In this document: piece by piece, positions 30,967 to 35,302 of the stretch
Position numbering within the stretch: position 1 is the stretch's first letter
Layout: every line of letters starts with the position of its first letter
Virus record (IMG/VR): IMGVR_UViG_2718218139_000011
DNA: 45,230 bases
From: a virus
Taxonomy: Duplodnaviria; Heunggongvirae; Uroviricota; Caudoviricetes
Strand: one strand, 5' to 3'
Made by a program: the position numbers and the translations under genes
The notes under the pieces: generated by a model
Databases searched by the model: none
The model's input: only the letters and a program-made list of their open reading frames with translations
Told to the model about the DNA's origin: nothing

Positions 30967-31042
30967 TGGTGGCCCTTGCTGGATTTGAACCAGCGACCTG
31001 GCGATTATGAGTCGCTCGCTCTCACCACTGAGCTAAAGGGCC
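30967..31042 (-). tRNA. tRNA-Ile2-like, anticodon CAU (ileZ-like)
   Basis: GGCCCTTTAGCTCAGTGGT...CTCATAATCGC...GGTTCAAATCC...CCA; resembles E. coli ileX-type tRNA. Confidence 0.8.
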
Positions 31043-31068
31043 GGGCCGAAAATAATAATCAGATGAAA

Positions 31069-31782
31069 TCAAAAATCAAGCCCTTGCATAGATACATATC
31101 TGTCTGGCGGGAAGCCATAATAGCGGTGAAATACAGAGATAAAATAGGACCTACTTGAATAACCGCATTTTTCTGCCACTGTCTGTCCATACCCATCCCG
31201 GGAACATAACATATTTACAGCAACCCGCATCCGCTCTTCCAGCAACAAGCGACTGAACATATGCCCTTCATTTTTCAGTTTTATCTTTAACAAACTCTCA
31301 CTCATATGCAGGCGTAACGCAATCGCACCGAGCATCCAGTTTGCAGATATATCTGTTTGAATTATCGCCCTGACTTTGGCACTTATACTGGATAAACATC
31401 CACTTAAAAATAATGACATCCGTTCATCTGATTCAAACAGCGACAGGCAGGCCATCATAAGAAACATATCCGTGGTATCTCCGTAAAATCTCTGGCTGGT
31501 AATTAAAGCCGCAGCCAACGCAGGATTGTTGGGTTCCAGGAACAGGTAAAGCGGAATGTCAGTCAGACGAGTCCTCGTCAGCTTATGCTGACTTTCCAGA
31601 TATTGACTTACTATGGAATGGTTTATATCGACAATTTTAACTTTGCCATAATGCATAAGGAACAGTTCCCTGATGCATTTGGTGGCCAGAACGACTGAGC
31701 CGGGCTTAAGTGACAACTTATCCTTTTCAAGAAAAATATTAATTGGGGAGCAAACCATGATAACTGAACAGACAACAGCCAT
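31069..31782 (-). CDS. AraC/XylS-family transcriptional regulator
   Basis: 237 aa; C-terminal double HTH region (...RSYFISVFHRYYGFPPDRY). Confidence 0.75.
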   Translation of the reverse strand: MAVVCSVIMVCSPINIFLEKDKLSLKPGSVVLATKCIRELFLMHYGKVKIVDINHSIVSQYLESQHKLTRTRLTDIPLYLFLEPNNPALAAALITSQRFYGDTTDMFLMMACLSLFESDERMSLFLSGCLSSISAKVRAIIQTDISANWMLGAIALRLHMSESLLKIKLKNEGHMFSRLLLEERMRVAVNMLCSRDGYGQTVAEKCGYSSRSYFISVFHRYYGFPPDRYVSMQGLDF

Positions 31783-31918
31783 TATAATTTTACTTTAATT
31801 AGCAATTGGTTGGCTCAATTATAGCCCCAAAAGGTAAATTCTCATCAACACATAAGAGCATGACTGACAGGTGCCGCTAACACCCACCAGCCGCCCATTA
31901 CCACAAATTAAAAAACCT

Positions 31919-32116
31919 TCACTGCGGAAGGCGTCTGTAACAACCGAACTGATAATCTGCCAGACCCGCCATAACAAGCTGGGTCAGTATTAACTGGCAG
32001 CGTTCACGTGAAAGGTAAGTATTCTGCGCAATCTCCCCGACTGTCGCCGGGTCGGTAACGCTTAATTCATTAAACACCACTCTGGCGGTTTTTGTCATAT
32101 CCTGCTGTTTTAGCAT
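31919..32116 (-). CDS. Hypothetical 65-aa protein, possible small winged-helix DNA-binding protein
   Basis: ORF MLKQQDMTKTARVVFNELSVTDPATVGEIAQNTYLSRERCQLILTQLVMAGLADYQF...; no recognised homolog. Confidence 0.4.
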   Translation of the reverse strand: MLKQQDMTKTARVVFNELSVTDPATVGEIAQNTYLSRERCQLILTQLVMAGLADYQFGCYRRLPQ

Positions 32117-32238
32117 GTCTTTTTTCCCTTTTAGTTAACGTGACATACCAATAACTCTTGTCCAAAAAGCCAGCAAGCAGAAAGACCGGTATTCGCAACC
32201 ACCAGCGCATTTAACGCCCCGTGCCGTTTTTCAGTCAT

Positions 32239-32260
32239 AAAAAAACCCGCAAAAAGCGGG
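32239..32260 (-). terminator. tR-prime-like intrinsic terminator downstream of the Q-like gene
   Basis: Minus-strand hairpin CCCGC-ttttt-GCGGG followed by T7, about 80 nt below the Q-like stop. Confidence 0.55.
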
Positions 32261-32339
32261 CTCTTTCAAATGTCCATGTCTGCTATTCGCCTCGCGGTAC
32301 AGCTTTGCGAAGCGTACCGGAATTGAAGCAGTTTTTACG

Positions 32340-32906
32340 TCAAAAAGCAATAACTTTTTTCTCTATACCAAAAGCCATAACCATTGGTTTGTACAAAATA
32401 AATTCTGCCACCTTTAGCCAATTCTCAATGCGCCTTTCACAGGTTCTTAAACTCCATTCCGGATGTGCATCATTCAGCAGTTCAGCCATTTTGCGCTTAG
32501 TCATCCCCCGCCCCACATAACGCTGACTCAGAACATTGAGCAGCCCGGGATAACCTGCCAGTACTTCACCAATAACCCTGTCGATTATTAACGCCTCTGA
32601 ATCGGTACAATGTGCCAGCCAGCTTTTTTGATTGCCGTTGATCATATCCCGCAAAAAAGCCTCAAGTTCAGGTTTGTCCAGACCCGCTTTTTTCATCCTC
32701 CGGAGCGCCTCGTTAATTGCCGTTTTTGTCAGCTTTTTAGAGGTCAGTAATTGGTTGAACATATTTCCCGTCTTACCGTCGCCAATATACGACCAACGCC
32801 CCCACATACGCAGTTTCCCCTGGATCCAGACACTTTCCAGCGTTTTCAGGCGTAAATGCTCACCGCTTTTGCCTGTAATTTCCGGGTATATCATATTTAT
32901 GCTCAC
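32340..32906 (-). CDS. Putative late-gene antiterminator Q
   Basis: 188 aa; assigned by position (directly after rusA, followed by a terminator, upstream of tRNAs and lysis genes); sequence family not confidently recognised. Confidence 0.55.
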   Translation of the reverse strand: MSINMIYPEITGKSGEHLRLKTLESVWIQGKLRMWGRWSYIGDGKTGNMFNQLLTSKKLTKTAINEALRRMKKAGLDKPELEAFLRDMINGNQKSWLAHCTDSEALIIDRVIGEVLAGYPGLLNVLSQRYVGRGMTKRKMAELLNDAHPEWSLRTCERRIENWLKVAEFILYKPMVMAFGIEKKVIAF

Positions 32907-33262
32907 TCACTTTCAATTTTGTAAATCTTCACACCCAACCGACCACCAGAAACGAGCTGACCGCGCACAATATTAATTTCGTCAAACTGCTCGTCGTCTA
33001 TGAGCAATCCGGCATGCGTCAGCGCATCCAGCGGTGCTTTCAGGATATTGTCCAGGTCACGACGGCGCTTATCCGGTGGCTCTGCAATAATCTTTATCGC
33101 CAGCCTTCCGGACAGGTTTAATTTCAGCCGCTGCTGGCGAACAATAAGCGCCACTGCCCGGCGATAACGCTCCCCGGCTTTTGATACAAAATATGTGCTG
33201 CCACGACGTCGCCAGTAAGTGTTCACCGTCGGCGGGTAAGGTAAAACCAAATCTATGAGCAT
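32903..33262 (-). CDS. rusA: RusA-family Holliday junction resolvase
   Basis: 119 aa with YPPTVNTYWRRRG, RRRDLDNILKAPLDALT and GGRLGVKI motifs. Confidence 0.85.
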   Translation of the reverse strand: MLIDLVLPYPPTVNTYWRRRGSTYFVSKAGERYRRAVALIVRQQRLKLNLSGRLAIKIIAEPPDKRRRDLDNILKAPLDALTHAGLLIDDEQFDEINIVRGQLVSGGRLGVKIYKIESE

Positions 33263-33274
33263 CAGTCACCTCTT

Positions 33275-34324
33275 TTACCCAAGCACGCCAGTTGCAAAGG
33301 CGTGATCAAGAAAACGAAAAATTAAATCAACCTGAGAACCATGCTTTTCTTCGAACGCCAGCGGATCCGCATGAAGCTCGTTGTGATGCTCCCGACACAG
33401 CGGTAGCGTGAAAATATCGTGAGATTTTGTCCCCATTCCGCCCTGACCATGACCAATCAGGTGATGGGGATCGTCGGCTGGCTTACCACAACACGCACAC
33501 GGCTGTGTCTTCACCCAGCGTGTGTATTTCTCGTTAACCCAGCGGCGACGTTTAGGTCGTTTCATGAAAGATTCCGGAGACTCAGGATCAACGGCAATGC
33601 TGACCACCGTCTTTTCCTGTGGTGGGTTCTGTTGCTGGTGGGCGTGAGGCAGCGGCGCAAGATTTTTTGTGCGCTGTTTCAGTATGCTGGTGGCGGTCTG
33701 CTCTCCCGGTACGATGTCGCTTTCACGGTACATTGAGCGGATTTTTTCCGCACGCAACCCCAGCGAACGACGTAATACCGCTTCCGGTAGCGCGTCCGCC
33801 ACCTGATTGCGGACCGCCCACCAGGATAATTCAGCCAGAGATAATTCACGCTCCTGCGTACCGCTTATTGCGCGACCGATGACGTCAATCATCCATGCTG
33901 ACAGGTTTTGATGAGCAAGTTGCTCGAGTGATTCGGATGTCTGGTCACGCAGCTGGTTGTCGCAGTGCCAACACAACACCATTGCGCCGGTACCATAACG
34001 GTGAATGACGGTTTCAGAGTGATGGTAATCGCCATTAGGCCACTGGCAGGATGTAACATGACGTAATAGCCAGTCAGACAATGCGCCAACGCCGCCAGCA
34101 GCGCGAATCACCCGCTCATCGCTGAAAAATGGCAGCAGAGATTTGTCTTCCGCCAGCGGCTGGCGAACGGCAGGAACGACTCCGGATGGCAGACCTCGCA
34201 TGCTTTTTGGCTCCGGCTCCACCAGCACACGCCCCTGCATAAACAAAGGCATCGCATCAGGACCGGGCCTGAAAAGTACAATCCCCAGACGGTGAGCAAT
34301 TTCAGGAGTCACTAATACCCGCAC
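33275..34324 (-). CDS. DUF968-family protein (YdfU-like) with C-terminal Cys/His-rich HNH-like region
   Basis: 349 aa; C-terminal CACCGKPADDPHHLIGHGQGGMGTKSHDIFTLPLCREHHNELH. Confidence 0.7.
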   Translation of the reverse strand: MRVLVTPEIAHRLGIVLFRPGPDAMPLFMQGRVLVEPEPKSMRGLPSGVVPAVRQPLAEDKSLLPFFSDERVIRAAGGVGALSDWLLRHVTSCQWPNGDYHHSETVIHRYGTGAMVLCWHCDNQLRDQTSESLEQLAHQNLSAWMIDVIGRAISGTQERELSLAELSWWAVRNQVADALPEAVLRRSLGLRAEKIRSMYRESDIVPGEQTATSILKQRTKNLAPLPHAHQQQNPPQEKTVVSIAVDPESPESFMKRPKRRRWVNEKYTRWVKTQPCACCGKPADDPHHLIGHGQGGMGTKSHDIFTLPLCREHHNELHADPLAFEEKHGSQVDLIFRFLDHAFATGVLG

Positions 34325-34604: not shown

Positions 34605-34739
34605 CGGTTTTCTCTGCTGGCGCAGCAGGTGCCAGTTGTTCAGGCTGACGTGCGGCAATATTGTCTCTGATTTCTGTTGTCGTCAACAGGCAACGTGCTA
34701 TCATCGAATGGTGTTCTATCCTACTCCGTGAGGTTTACC

Positions 34740-34997
34740 ATGCGTACAACCCAACAATTCAGCATTACATTAACTAACGAAATGGCTGACATGGTGCGCG
34801 CCCGTGTGGCTTCCGGTGCCTATGCTTCAGAAAGCGAGGTCATTCGTGAAGGGCTTCGCGCACTGAATGAGCGCGATAAAGCAATCGAAGCGTGGTTAAC
34901 GCATTCAGCCGCCCCCTCTCTTGATTCTATCCGCGAAAATCCAAACAACGGACGCTCCATTTCACAGGTTCGCGCCGCGATTCGATCCGGGAAGTAA
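34740..34997 (+). CDS. parD: ParD-family antitoxin (ribbon-helix-helix)
   Basis: Start MRTTQQFSITLTNEMADMVRARVASGAYASESEVIREGLRAL with GTGAGG RBS 6 nt upstream; plus strand. Confidence 0.8.
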   Translation: MRTTQQFSITLTNEMADMVRARVASGAYASESEVIREGLRALNERDKAIEAWLTHSAAPSLDSIRENPNNGRSISQVRAAIRSGK

Positions 34998-35002
34998 TCT
35001 GC

Positions 35003-35302
35003 ATGACATATGAAGTCATCATTACTCCTGAGGCCGAACAACAAATAATCAACCTGCACAAATATATAACGGAGAAAGCAGGGAACGTCATTGCTGACAA
35101 TTATGCCAATGCGCTTCTTGATTATCTTGATGGGTTTTCTACATTCCCGCATCGGGGCAATAAACGCGATGATATTCGCCAGGGGATGCGGGTAACTCAT
35201 TTCCGCCACAGAACGATTATTGCTTTTGCCGTTGATGGCAGAAAAGTCTTTATTGTCGGTATCTATCATGGTGGGCAAAGTTATGAAACCGATTTCTTAT
35301 AA
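35003..35302 (+). CDS. parE: ParE/RelE-superfamily toxin
   Basis: 99 aa starting 5 nt after the parD stop; size and organisation typical of ParE. Confidence 0.75.
   Translation: MTYEVIITPEAEQQIINLHKYITEKAGNVIADNYANALLDYLDGFSTFPHRGNKRDDIRQGMRVTHFRHRTIIAFAVDGRKVFIVGIYHGGQSYETDFL

What the first reader, a model, noticed from the sequence alone, without database searches (positions are those of the whole stretch)
31069..32116. AraC-family regulator and a 65-aa putative DNA-binding ORF just downstream of the tR-prime-like terminator
The pair is placed so it would be transcribed by late read-through from the Q-dependent promoter, and may also have its own promoter. Prophage AraC-like regulators in attaching and effacing E. 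coli are known to cross-regulate chromosomal virulence and acid-resistance genes. This one is unassigned, and the adjacent small ORF has no recognised function.
Basis: inference. Interest (0 to 1): 0.55.

Follow-up and report, generated by a model that had tools for sequence, protein, structure and literature searches.

The report
Psr-type prophage regulator plus phage winged-helix gene
The larger gene is a new allele of the already studied PsrA/PsrB prophage regulators that raise acid resistance and damp type III secretion in pathogenic E. coli, and the 65-residue gene beside it is a separate, widely conserved phage gene of unknown function, so the finding is real but mostly ordinary.

Summary
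Both ORFs are real and sit just downstream of a Q-like antiterminator gene and a tR'-like terminator, on the minus strand of an effector-carrying lambdoid prophage. The 237-aa AraC/XylS protein (31069-31782) is not unassigned. It is 92.0% identical to PsrA (Sakai ECs_1087, Sp4) and 92.0% identical to the copy in EDL933 OI-57, which is PsrB by position. It occupies the same slot as both, between the small ORF and the ileZ-argN-argO tRNA genes. By homology it should activate gadE/hdeA-type acid-resistance promoters and indirectly repress LEE type III secretion. The 65-aa ORF (31919-32116) is a genuine gene: dN/dS is 0.06-0.08 across phages of four genera, and a confident AlphaFold model (pLDDT 93) shows a minimal winged helix. 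It is not a partner of the regulator. It belongs to a conserved ~400-bp block that in most phages is followed by an N6/N4 DNA methyltransferase, and the psr cassette (31059-31845) has replaced that methyltransferase here. Next to the characterised psrA in Sakai, the small ORF is frameshifted. Verdict: a new member of a known regulator family, next to an uncharacterised but common phage gene. Interest is low to moderate.

The parts
32340..32906 (-). Q-like late antiterminator gene (DUF1133 type, 188 aa as listed; 184 aa from the Met used in EDL933)
   Evidence: Pfam DUF1133 at E 8.7e-105 and Phage_antitermQ at 33.2 bits against a cut-off of 26. phrog_753 'anti-termination protein Q-like' at E 1e-80. 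97% identical to the Q-like protein of EDL933 OI-57.
32238..32331 (-). Short late leader: a first hairpin (about 32280-32331) and a tR'-like intrinsic terminator (about 32238-32268; GAGCCCGC-UUUUU-GCGGG followed by U7)
   Evidence: RNA fold of 32225-32345(-): -39.2 kcal/mol, z = -4.1, and none of 200 shuffles folded as well. Sequence read. A weak, sub-threshold Rfam isrK hit covers 32240-32313 (19.8 bits against a gathering score of 50). The pR' promoter itself was not located.
31846..32250 (-). Conserved ~400-bp block shared by many lambdoid phages: terminator tail, 135-nt leader, the 65-aa ORF and about 73 nt beyond its stop codon
   Evidence: blastn identity is 90% to phiP27, 82.5% to SfV and 70% to mEp460. 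Homology stops at 31846/31851 in all three. The alignment shows the break point.
31919..32116 (-). 65-aa winged-helix gene (phrog_331; phiP27 L23, SfV orf47, mEp460 gp52, Sakai ECs_1086 family)
   Evidence: phrog_331 at E 3e-36. dN/dS 0.06-0.08. AlphaFold2 pLDDT 93 and pTM 0.80, with H1-beta-H2-H3-wing topology. Foldseek probability 1.00 and TM 0.75-0.80 to MarR/OhrR and IclR winged helices. The Pfam TrmB hit is below threshold (16.9 against 25.6 bits). An in-frame stop lies 18 nt upstream of the ATG, and AAGGGA lies about 10 nt upstream.
31915..31932 (-). Weak hairpin plus T-run overlapping the stop codon of the 65-aa ORF (possible leaky terminator)
   Evidence: Listed by the terminator scan. 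The fold is not better than shuffles (z = -0.43). The stem is kept while the loop differs between alleles. This is inferred only.
31059..31845 (-). psr cassette: a low-G+C insert that replaces the DNA methyltransferase gene found at this position in phiP27, SfV, mEp460 and phiNP
   Evidence: Homology with phiP27 is lost at 31846 and resumes at 31058, just before the ileZ tRNA. G+C is 39-44% here against 50-58% in the flanks.
31818..31845 (-). Sigma-70 promoter-like site (ATGAGA-16 nt-TATAAT) 36 nt upstream of the psr start codon, at the cassette junction
   Evidence: 10 of 12 matches. The number of such sites in the region equals the shuffle expectation (3 against 3.0), so this is not significant on its own. 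TATAAT is invariant in six psr alleles. This is inferred only.
31069..31782 (-). psr-type AraC/XylS regulator gene (237 aa)
   Evidence: Pfam HTH_18 and HTH_AraC. 218/237 identical to PsrA (Sakai ECs_1087 extended to 237 aa) and 218/237 to the EDL933 OI-57 copy. Full-length similarity to the YdeO model and to ECs_0287 (38%) supports the long start. The closest solved structures are the GadX DNA-binding domain and Rns.
30793..31042 (-). Three tRNA genes: ileZ-type (anticodon CAT, called Met by ARAGORN), argN-type (TCG) and argO-type (TCT)
   Evidence: ARAGORN and Rfam tRNA. The same trio is annotated ileZ1/argN1/argO1 after psrA in Sakai.
30761..30780 (-). Strong terminator-like hairpin plus T-run after the last tRNA gene; likely end of a psr-tRNA transcript made without Q
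   Evidence: Terminator scan: 8 pairs, 6 of them G-C, followed by TTTTTTG. This is inferred only.

Best explanation
The window is an effector-carrying lambdoid prophage of E. coli, with its late operon on the minus strand.

The regulator. The 237-aa gene is a Psr-type (prophage-encoded secretion regulator) AraC/XylS activator, a third allele alongside PsrA and PsrB of O157:H7. It is a low-G+C moron cassette that has replaced the DNA methyltransferase gene normally found between the small late-leader ORF and the ileZ-argN-argO tRNA genes. It most likely works as PsrA and PsrB do. From its own promoter in the lysogen, and additionally from pR' after Q antitermination, it is made and binds AT-rich sites in acid-fitness-island promoters (gadE, hdeA). 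This raises GadE and YhiF, which increases acid resistance and indirectly lowers LEE type III secretion.

The small ORF. The 65-aa ORF is an independent gene. It encodes a stand-alone minimal winged-helix protein and is the conserved first ORF after tR' in a large group of enterobacterial lambdoid phages. It is co-inherited with the methyltransferase, not with psr. I infer that it is a late-expressed nucleic-acid- or protein-binding factor tied to the methyltransferase module. Here it is a leftover neighbour rather than a co-regulator of psr.

Shown and inferred. Shown here: gene reality, family identity, module boundaries, fold and linkage. Inferred: the targets of this allele, promoter use, and any activity of the small protein.
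For: Identity. The protein is 92.0% identical to PsrA (ECs_1087; named psrA, Sp4, in PMC13502914; sequences). It is also 92.0% identical to the OI-57 copy. Those two copies are 90.7% identical to each other, matching the 90% PsrA/PsrB identity reported in the reviews.

Same slot and gene order in EDL933 OI-57: DUF968, RusA, DUF1133 Q, 65-aa ORF, AraC, tRNAs, TerB, DUF3927, SASA esterase. The same slot is used in Sakai Sp4.

The prophage carries an EspF-repeat effector, matching the reported association of psr genes with effector loci.

Function of the family: PsrA and PsrB raise GadE/YhiF and repress T3S, and PsrB binds the gadE and hdeA promoters (reviews PMC10877973 and PMC8565820). psrA is expressed and regulated in uninduced lysogens.

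Cassette boundaries come, and low G+C.

Small ORF: dN/dS 0.06-0.08; winged-helix model; a methyltransferase lies downstream in 72 of 76 informative IMG/VR loci, behind at least five Q types; the same arrangement holds in SfV, mEp460, phiNP and a Klebsiella phage; it is frameshifted beside the functional psrA in Sakai.
Against: No experiment exists on this allele. It has 9 private substitutions relative to both O157 copies, and 6 of them lie in the C-terminal DNA-binding half (N148, M150, D196, T201, M232, F237), so target range or strength could differ.

The primary PsrA, PsrB and PatE papers were not available, so functional statements rest on two reviews and one 2026 paper.

The promoter-like site is no more than chance would give.

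pR' was not located.

The identification of the OI-57 copy as PsrB (z2104) rests on coordinates, not on a locus tag.

Reviews place psrA (z1789) in OI-50/CP-933N, but neither Sakai Sp6 nor the resequenced EDL933 CP-933N has an AraC gene there.

The IMG/VR census took the 80 loci closest to the query, so it is biased towards E. coli phages.
Confidence: 0.75

Rival explanations
1. The two ORFs form a dedicated two-gene regulatory unit. The 65-aa winged-helix protein would act as a co-regulator, anti-activator or autoregulator of the AraC gene.
For: The two genes are adjacent and co-oriented in 724 of 5426 complete E. coli genomes. Every psr allele examined has the small ORF upstream. About 73 nt of conserved sequence between the small ORF and the psr cassette could hold an operator.
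Against: The small ORF occurs in about three times as many E. coli genomes as the pair (2142 against 724). It is normally followed by a methyltransferase (72 of 76 loci), including in other genera. Homology mapping shows psr to be a replacement cassette. The copy next to the experimentally functional psrA in Sakai and in strain Z1769 is frameshifted and loses helix 3's end and the wing.
Confidence: 0.1
2. The regulator is a Psr homologue that has diverged in function. It would recognise other promoters, or act only on phage genes, rather than on the GAD/LEE circuit.
For: Identity to PsrA and PsrB is only 92%, with 9 private substitutions, 6 of them in the DNA-binding half. Reviews report that even PsrA and PsrB differ in phenotype: deleting psrA raises secretion, while deleting psrB has little effect. 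Its position inside the late transcript means it is also produced during lytic growth.
Against: The second helix-turn-helix region (VAEKCGYSSRSYFISVFHRYYGFPPDRY) is identical to that of the OI-57 copy except T201 just before it. The first differs from PsrA only at N148 and M150. More distant prophage relatives (PatE-like ECs_0287 at 38%; AppY) still act on the same acid-resistance genes. The allele is a mosaic of PsrA-like and PsrB-like states, which suggests recombination within one functional family.
Confidence: 0.12
3. The 65-aa ORF is not a protein-coding gene, and the conserved block is a cis-acting RNA or DNA element of the late leader.
For: The ORF lies in a leader region directly after tR'. 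About 135 nt upstream and 73 nt downstream of it are conserved as well. Annotations are inconsistent, with 65-, 72-, 94- and 106-aa versions and some records unannotated.
Against: dN/dS is 0.06-0.08 at dS 0.2-2.8. The core length of 63-65 aa is conserved across Escherichia, Salmonella, Klebsiella, Citrobacter and Buttiauxella. AlphaFold gives a confident globular winged-helix model from a diverse alignment (pLDDT 93).
Confidence: 0.03

Closest known systems
PsrA (Sakai ECs_1087, prophage Sp4) and PsrB (EDL933 z2104, OI-57/CP-933O), prophage-encoded secretion regulators of EHEC O157:H7
   Same: Same length (237 aa) and 92.0% identity to each. Same AraC/XylS architecture. Same genomic slot between the small post-tR' ORF and ileZ-argN-argO in a lambdoid prophage that carries T3SS effector genes. 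Same low-G+C cassette, and the same conserved TATAAT upstream.
   Different: It is a distinct allele: 10 sites match PsrA only, 10 match PsrB only, and 9 are private. It is untested experimentally. Here it sits behind a DUF1133-type Q, as psrB does, but the identical protein is also found behind lambda-type and 21-type Q genes in other strains.
PatE (z0321, OI-8; presumably Sakai ECs_0287), AppY, YdeO, GadX/GadW: AraC/XylS regulators of the E. coli acid-resistance network
   Same: Full-length collinear similarity: 38% to ECs_0287 from residue 1, and the YdeO model aligns over residues 1-229. The GadX DNA-binding domain is the best PDB match. PatE and AppY are also prophage-borne and act on gadE/hdeA-type genes.
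   Different: These are well below orthologue level: 104 bits against the YdeO equivalog cut-off of 348, and 84 against 500 for GadX. They occupy different genomic locations.
phiP27 L23, SfV orf47, mEp460 gp52 and Sakai ECs_1086 (phrog_331), the small ORF after tR' of lambdoid phages, with the adjacent N6/N4 DNA methyltransferase
   Same: The 65-aa ORF is 97% identical to phiP27 L23, 91% to SfV orf47 and 52% to mEp460 gp52. It holds the same position after Q and tR'.
   Different: In those phages the next gene, about 150 nt downstream, is a PF01555 DNA methyltransferase. Here that gene has been replaced by psr. None of these proteins has a described function.
Winged-helix transcription factors (MarR/OhrR, IclR N-terminal domain; Pfam TrmB)
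   Same: H1-beta-H2-H3-beta-hairpin topology. TM-score is 0.75-0.80 and rmsd about 2 A over 57-62 columns to OhrR and IclR-type domains.
   Different: The protein is only 65 aa, with no dimerisation or ligand-binding domain. The Pfam TrmB score is below threshold. Equally good structural matches are the non-DNA-binding N-terminal winged helices of small-molecule O-methyltransferases, so DNA binding is not established.
Lambda 6S RNA and StxS (short pR'-tR' transcripts)
   Same: A structured leader of about 75-100 nt, ending in an intrinsic terminator, lies directly after the Q gene. In Stx phages such a leader is made constitutively in lysogens and acts as an sRNA (PMC7547250).
   Different: The promoter and the RNA ends were not mapped here, and no sequence comparison with StxS was made. 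The only Rfam hit is a sub-threshold one to isrK.

Membership tests
AraC/XylS family transcription factors | C-terminal DNA-binding domain of about 100 residues with two helix-turn-helix motifs | tested here: met
   Pfam HTH_18 covers residues 155-229 (39.8 bits, cut-off 33.6) and HTH_AraC scores 36.6 bits (cut-off 26.6). Residues 134-231 align to the GadX DNA-binding domain 3MKL at E 1.5e-16.
Psr (prophage-encoded secretion regulator) family, PsrA/PsrB | Close full-length sequence identity to PsrA and PsrB (which are about 90% identical to each other) | tested here: met
   218/237 identical to ECs_1087 (psrA) and 218/237 to the OI-57 copy. Those two share 215/237. The psrA = ecs1087 assignment comes from PMC13502914. 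The PsrB assignment rests on the OI-57 coordinates given in a review.
Psr (prophage-encoded secretion regulator) family, PsrA/PsrB | Encoded on a lambdoid prophage associated with T3SS effector loci, between the Q region and the ileZ-argN-argO tRNA genes | tested here: met
   The gene order is the same as in EDL933 OI-57 and Sakai Sp4. An EspF-repeat effector ORF lies at window 1-753. No pch (PerC) gene was looked for in the window.
Psr (prophage-encoded secretion regulator) family, PsrA/PsrB | Activates gadE/yhiF/hdeA and thereby represses LEE type III secretion and raises acid resistance | not testable with these tools
   This is known for PsrA and PsrB from reviews only. It needs EMSA, reporter and secretion assays with this allele.
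YdeO / GadX equivalogs (NCBIfam NF007407, NF007432) | Score above the curated equivalog cut-off | tested here: not met
   YdeO scores 104.4 bits against a cut-off of 348, and GadX 84.5 against 500. The protein is related but not an orthologue.
PatE (z0321) | Orthologue-level identity to the OI-8/Sp1 regulator | tested here: not met
   38% identity to Sakai ECs_0287, the AraC-like gene of Sp1 taken to be PatE.
TrmB family transcriptional regulators (Pfam PF01978), the RefSeq name of the 65-aa protein | Score above Pfam's gathering threshold for the TrmB winged-helix domain | tested here: not met
   16.9 bits against a cut-off of 25.6, E 0.006. NCBIfam gives no hit.
Winged-helix (wHTH) fold | Three-helix bundle with helix-turn-helix followed by a beta-hairpin wing | tested here: met
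   AlphaFold2 model with pLDDT 93: H9-15, H26-33, H37-49, E53-56, E59-62. Foldseek probability 1.00 and TM 0.75-0.80 to OhrR, MarR and IclR domains, although E-values are only about 1e-3 because of the short length.
Winged-helix DNA-binding regulators | Sequence-specific DNA binding | not testable with these tools
   The fold alone does not show this. Comparable matches are to non-DNA-binding winged helices of O-methyltransferases.
PHROG phrog_331 | Significant match to the family profile | tested here: met
   E 3.2e-36, with residues 1-64 on profile positions 35-98 of 111. The family has no known function.
Restriction-modification controller (C) proteins (considered because the small ORF usually precedes a methyltransferase) | Xre-type HTH of about 80 aa placed upstream of a restriction endonuclease gene, with C-box operators | tested here: not met
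   The fold is a winged helix, not Xre-type. No endonuclease gene accompanies the methyltransferase in phiP27, SfV, mEp460 or phiNP. No fusion or other link was found among 84 family representatives. Operators were not searched for.
Lambdoid late-transcription unit (Q, pR', tR') | Q antiterminator gene followed by a short leader ending in an intrinsic terminator, with late genes downstream on the same strand | tested here: inconclusive
   A Q-like gene and a terminator are present, and late genes lie downstream. No pR' promoter or Q-binding element was identified.

The most novel reading that the evidence does not exclude
The 65-aa stand-alone winged-helix protein and the N6/N4 DNA methyltransferase that normally follows it may form a functional two-gene late module of enterobacterial lambdoid phages. 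The small protein would control or target the methyltransferase, or regulate whatever gene sits in the downstream slot. In psr prophages it may then have been co-opted to gate expression of a host-virulence regulator. That would link phage late-gene control to acid resistance and type III secretion.
Probability: 0.12. Interest if true: 0.5.

Novelty: new member of a known kind. Interest (0 to 1): 0.25.

Why it matters
Psr regulators let prophages rewire core E. coli stress and virulence circuits (GAD acid resistance up, LEE secretion down). PsrA contributes to persistence in ruminants. This window shows that non-O157 effector prophages carry further Psr alleles, here a mosaic of PsrA-like and PsrB-like states. 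The same allele moves between prophages with different Q antiterminators. A homologue even sits inside the late transcript of a Stx2k phage, upstream of the toxin genes. That is useful for annotation, because these genes are currently labelled only 'helix-turn-helix domain-containing protein'. It is also useful for comparing acid-resistance and colonisation phenotypes between EHEC/EPEC lineages. The side result concerns the small post-tR' ORF. It is a strongly constrained winged-helix protein co-inherited with a phage methyltransferase in hundreds of phages, and psr replaced that methyltransferase. This defines a tractable unknown gene in very well studied phages, but nothing here overturns current understanding.

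Tried and rejected
1. I tried to read the primary papers on PsrB (PMC4288888), PatE (PMC3416394) and PsrA (PMC7099609). None is held, so functional statements rest on reviews and a 2026 paper.

2. I looked for psrA as z1789 in OI-50/CP-933N. Sakai Sp6 and the resequenced EDL933 CP-933N have no AraC homologue. This was resolved through PMC13502914, which gives psrA = ecs1087 in Sp4. NC_002655.2 is not in the collection.

3. The first AlphaFold run, with a shallow alignment of sequences 79-95% identical to the query, gave pLDDT 67 and non-significant fold matches. I replaced it with a more diverse alignment.

4. I searched for fusions of the small protein to a methyltransferase or any larger protein, as a Rosetta-stone test. 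There were only 84 representatives among 1.84 billion proteins. All real matches are short stand-alone proteins. Two long hits match only about 25 residues of repeats.

5. PADLOC (defence systems) and PDB sequence searches for the small protein gave nothing significant.

6. I rejected the controller-protein (R-M C-protein) idea as a family assignment (wrong fold, no endonuclease). It is kept only as a loose functional analogy.

7. The promoter scan did not find pR', and the terminator scan did not list tR'. tR' was established by folding instead.

8. A repeat finder for operators in the intergenic region failed on a strand argument and was not repeated.
Full report
OBSERVATION

The window is a lambdoid prophage whose late genes run on the minus strand. 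Reading 5' to 3' on that strand, the features are as follows.

- A DUF968 gene at 33275-34324.
- rusA at 32903-33262.
- A Q-like antiterminator gene at 32340-32906. It matches Pfam DUF1133 at E 9e-105, Phage_antitermQ above threshold, and phrog_753.
- A structured leader ending in a G+C-rich hairpin followed by seven U residues, at about 32238-32268. The leader folds with z = -4.1.
- The 65-aa ORF at 31919-32116.
- The 237-aa AraC-type ORF at 31069-31782.
- Three tRNA genes at 30793-31042.
- A terminator-like hairpin at 30761-30780.
- TerB and DUF3927 genes.
- The sialate O-acetylesterase gene nanS-p at 27776-29713.
- The lysis and structural genes.

The finding's coordinates and description are therefore correct. 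The window matches contig PVMG01000001.1 of E. coli assembly GCA_003015325.1 at 99.99% over 12.7 kb. No complete RefSeq E. coli genome holds the pair at more than 98.8% identity.

THE REGULATOR

The 237-aa protein has the AraC/XylS double helix-turn-helix domain. Its nearest solved relatives are the GadX DNA-binding domain and Rns. Over its whole length it resembles YdeO and the Sp1 regulator ECs_0287, presumed to be PatE, at 38% identity starting from residue 1. This full-length similarity supports the 237-aa start over the 195-aa start annotated in some genomes.

It is much closer to the Psr proteins of O157:H7. A 2026 paper names psrA as ecs1087 in Sakai prophage Sp4 (PMC13502914). I fetched that locus and found the 237-aa reading frame to be 218/237 (92.0%) identical to the window protein.

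The AraC gene lying inside EDL933 O-island 57 has the same length and is also 218/237 identical. OI-57 is where the reviews place psrB, z2104. The two O157 proteins share 215/237 (90.7%), matching the 90% PsrA/PsrB identity given in the reviews.

Of the 29 variable sites, the window allele agrees with PsrA alone at 10 and with the OI-57 copy alone at 10. It is private at 9, six of which lie in the DNA-binding half.

The gene order in OI-57 is identical to the window: DUF968, RusA, DUF1133 Q, 65-aa ORF, AraC, tRNAs, TerB, DUF3927, esterase.

The prophage also carries an EspF-repeat effector ORF at its left end, at 1-753, with four repeats and E 5.5e-109. This fits the published statement that psr genes are found on prophages associated with effector loci.

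According to the reviews, PsrA and PsrB raise GadE and YhiF and thereby repress type III secretion. PsrB also binds the gadE and hdeA promoters and increases acid resistance. PsrA contributes to persistence in sheep.

By homology, I assign the window gene to this family with the same likely mechanism. The targets of this particular allele remain untested.

HOW IT IS PROBABLY TRANSCRIBED

The gene lies in the late-operon orientation, after the tR'-like terminator. Q-modified polymerase starting at pR' would therefore read through it.

In the inducible phage phiSTEC1575-Stx2k, a 90% homologue lies with the small ORF between Q and the tRNA-stx2k genes. It is therefore necessarily part of that phage's late or toxin transcript.

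pR' is constitutively active in lysogens and terminated at tR' (PMC7547250). Expression in the lysogen therefore needs a separate promoter.

A promoter-like ATGAGA-16-TATAAT lies at 31818-31845, 36 nt upstream of the start codon and exactly at the cassette junction. Its TATAAT is invariant in six alleles. However, such matches are no commoner here than in shuffled sequence, so this is only a candidate.

Independent support for lysogenic expression comes from psrA mRNA, which changes with an sRNA in uninduced EHEC and after host-cell attachment.

A strong terminator-like site follows the third tRNA gene. A psr-ileZ-argN-argO transcript is therefore conceivable.

The psr gene itself has 42% G+C. 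It uses ATA for 6 of 16 Ile codons and AGA/AGG for 6 of 14 Arg codons.

THE SMALL ORF

The small ORF is a real gene. Nei-Gojobori dN/dS against other phages is as follows.

| Comparison | dN/dS |
|---|---|
| phiP27 | 0.076 |
| SfV | 0.061 |
| Citrobacter phage phiNP | 0.073 |
| Klebsiella phage | 0.070 |

dS across these comparisons ranges from 0.18 to 2.8.

Homologues of 63-65 aa occur in Escherichia, Shigella, Salmonella, Klebsiella, Citrobacter and Buttiauxella. Longer annotated versions (94-106 aa) come from variable upstream starts. In the window an in-frame stop lies 18 nt upstream of the ATG.

The family is small and narrow. It has 84 representatives among 1.84 billion proteins. All genuine hits are short stand-alone proteins, with no fusions.

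With a diverse alignment, AlphaFold2 gives a confident model (pLDDT 93, pTM 0.80). The topology is H1-beta-H2-H3 plus a beta-hairpin wing. Foldseek matches winged-helix domains of OhrR/MarR and IclR regulators at TM 0.75-0.80. It matches the non-DNA-binding N-terminal winged helices of O-methyltransferases equally well.

The RefSeq name 'TrmB family transcriptional regulator' is not supported at Pfam's threshold. The fold is therefore established, but DNA binding is not.

THE TWO ORFS ARE NOT A UNIT

blastn against phiP27, SfV and mEp460 shows a conserved block at 32250-31846. It covers the terminator tail, a 135-nt leader, the ORF and about 73 nt beyond the ORF. Homology then stops and, for phiP27, resumes at 31058 just before the ileZ tRNA.

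In those phages, and in phiNP and a Klebsiella phage, the intervening gene is a PF01555 N6/N4 DNA methyltransferase. It starts about 150 nt after the small ORF.

Of the 80 IMG/VR loci closest to the small ORF, 76 had enough downstream sequence to be informative. In 72 of those the methyltransferase lies downstream, in 2 TerB, and in 1 psr. At least five different Q types lie upstream.

In complete E. coli genomes the small ORF is present in 2142 of 5426, and the pair in 724.

The exact window Psr protein also occurs behind lambda-type and 21-type Q genes.

Next to the experimentally studied psrA in Sakai, and in strain Z1769, the small ORF is frameshifted after about residue 49. This removes the end of helix 3 and the wing.

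I therefore read psr as a low-G+C moron cassette (31059-31845) that replaced the methyltransferase. The small ORF is the surviving upstream half of a winged-helix plus methyltransferase module.

COMPARISON WITH THE KNOWN, AND NOVELTY

The regulator is a new allele of a characterised family. That condition is not met, because the known paralogues do have host targets. The claim that the gene is unassigned does not hold either.

It is common, already present in classic phage genomes (phiP27 L23, SfV orf47) and functionally unknown (phrog_331).

The most novel reading that remains open is that the winged-helix protein controls the downstream slot, either the methyltransferase or psr. I give this about 12%.

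LIMITS

- No primary Psr or PatE paper could be read.
- The PsrB identification rests on position.
- The literature places psrA (z1789) in OI-50, but that conflicts with the current Sakai and EDL933 assemblies, where CP-933N/Sp6 has no AraC gene.
- pR' was not located.
- The census is biased towards close relatives.

Noticed in passing
window 1-753 (+): An ORF with four EspF-type 47-residue proline-rich repeats (Pfam EspF at E 5.5e-109). It lies beyond the tail-fibre and Lom genes, so it is a TccP/EspFU-like type III effector in the prophage's cargo region. This indicates a LEE-positive (attaching-effacing) host.
   Followed up: partly
window 1359-2515 (+), 43557-44713 (+), 44754-45230 (-): Two IS3-family insertion sequences with the same ORF layout (ORFs of 100 and 272 aa; the two 272-aa products give identical Pfam scores) bracket the prophage. 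A third copy is cut off by the window end. No integrase was seen among the ORFs scanned at the window's right-hand end, so the prophage may be defective.
   Followed up: partly
window 29851-30023 (-): Full-length Rfam match to the sRNA family STnc100 (104.7 bits against a gathering score of 47), between the DUF3927 gene and nanS-p.
   Followed up: no
window 32238-32331 (-): The short structured leader between Q and the small ORF resembles the constitutive pR'-tR' transcripts that act as sRNAs in Stx phages (StxS) and lambda (6S RNA). Its only Rfam hit is a sub-threshold one to isrK (19.8 bits). Neither the promoter nor the RNA ends were mapped.
   Followed up: partly
L002 (Sakai Sp6) and L004 (EDL933 CP-933N) against L100 (Sakai Sp4): Reviews place psrA (z1789) in OI-50/CP-933N. 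However, neither Sakai Sp6 nor the resequenced EDL933 CP-933N contains an AraC gene between Q and nanS-p. A 2026 paper gives psrA as ecs1087 in Sp4. The original EDL933 assembly or the O-island assignment may be wrong for this segment.
   Followed up: partly
L100 6344-6583 (Sakai ECs_1086); L003 6852-7048: The small winged-helix ORF next to psrA in O157:H7 is frameshifted after about residue 49. It is annotated either as a 79-aa hypothetical protein or as a pseudogene.
   Followed up: yes
L007 (phage phiSTEC1575-Stx2k) 4143-6824: An inducible Stx2k-converting phage carries the small ORF, a psr homologue (90% identical), the three tRNA genes and stx2kAB in one co-oriented string after Q. An anti-adaptor iraM-like gene follows on the opposite strand.
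   Followed up: partly
window about 34677-35302 (+): A ParD/ParE-type antitoxin-toxin pair lies on the opposite strand, between the nin-region genes and the DUF968 gene. This is inferred from the Pfam marks on the 99.99%-identical locus L015.
   Followed up: no
window 30192-30695 and 30028-30195 (-): A TerB-domain gene and a DUF3927 gene follow the tRNA genes, as in EDL933 OI-57. In the O111 strain 11128 homologue, an IS66-family element is inserted between the tRNA genes and TerB.
   Followed up: no
window 31069-31782 (-) with 30793-31042 (-): psr is rich in the rare codons ATA (6 of 16 Ile) and AGA/AGG (6 of 14 Arg). These are the codons read by the tRNA genes immediately downstream.
   Followed up: partly
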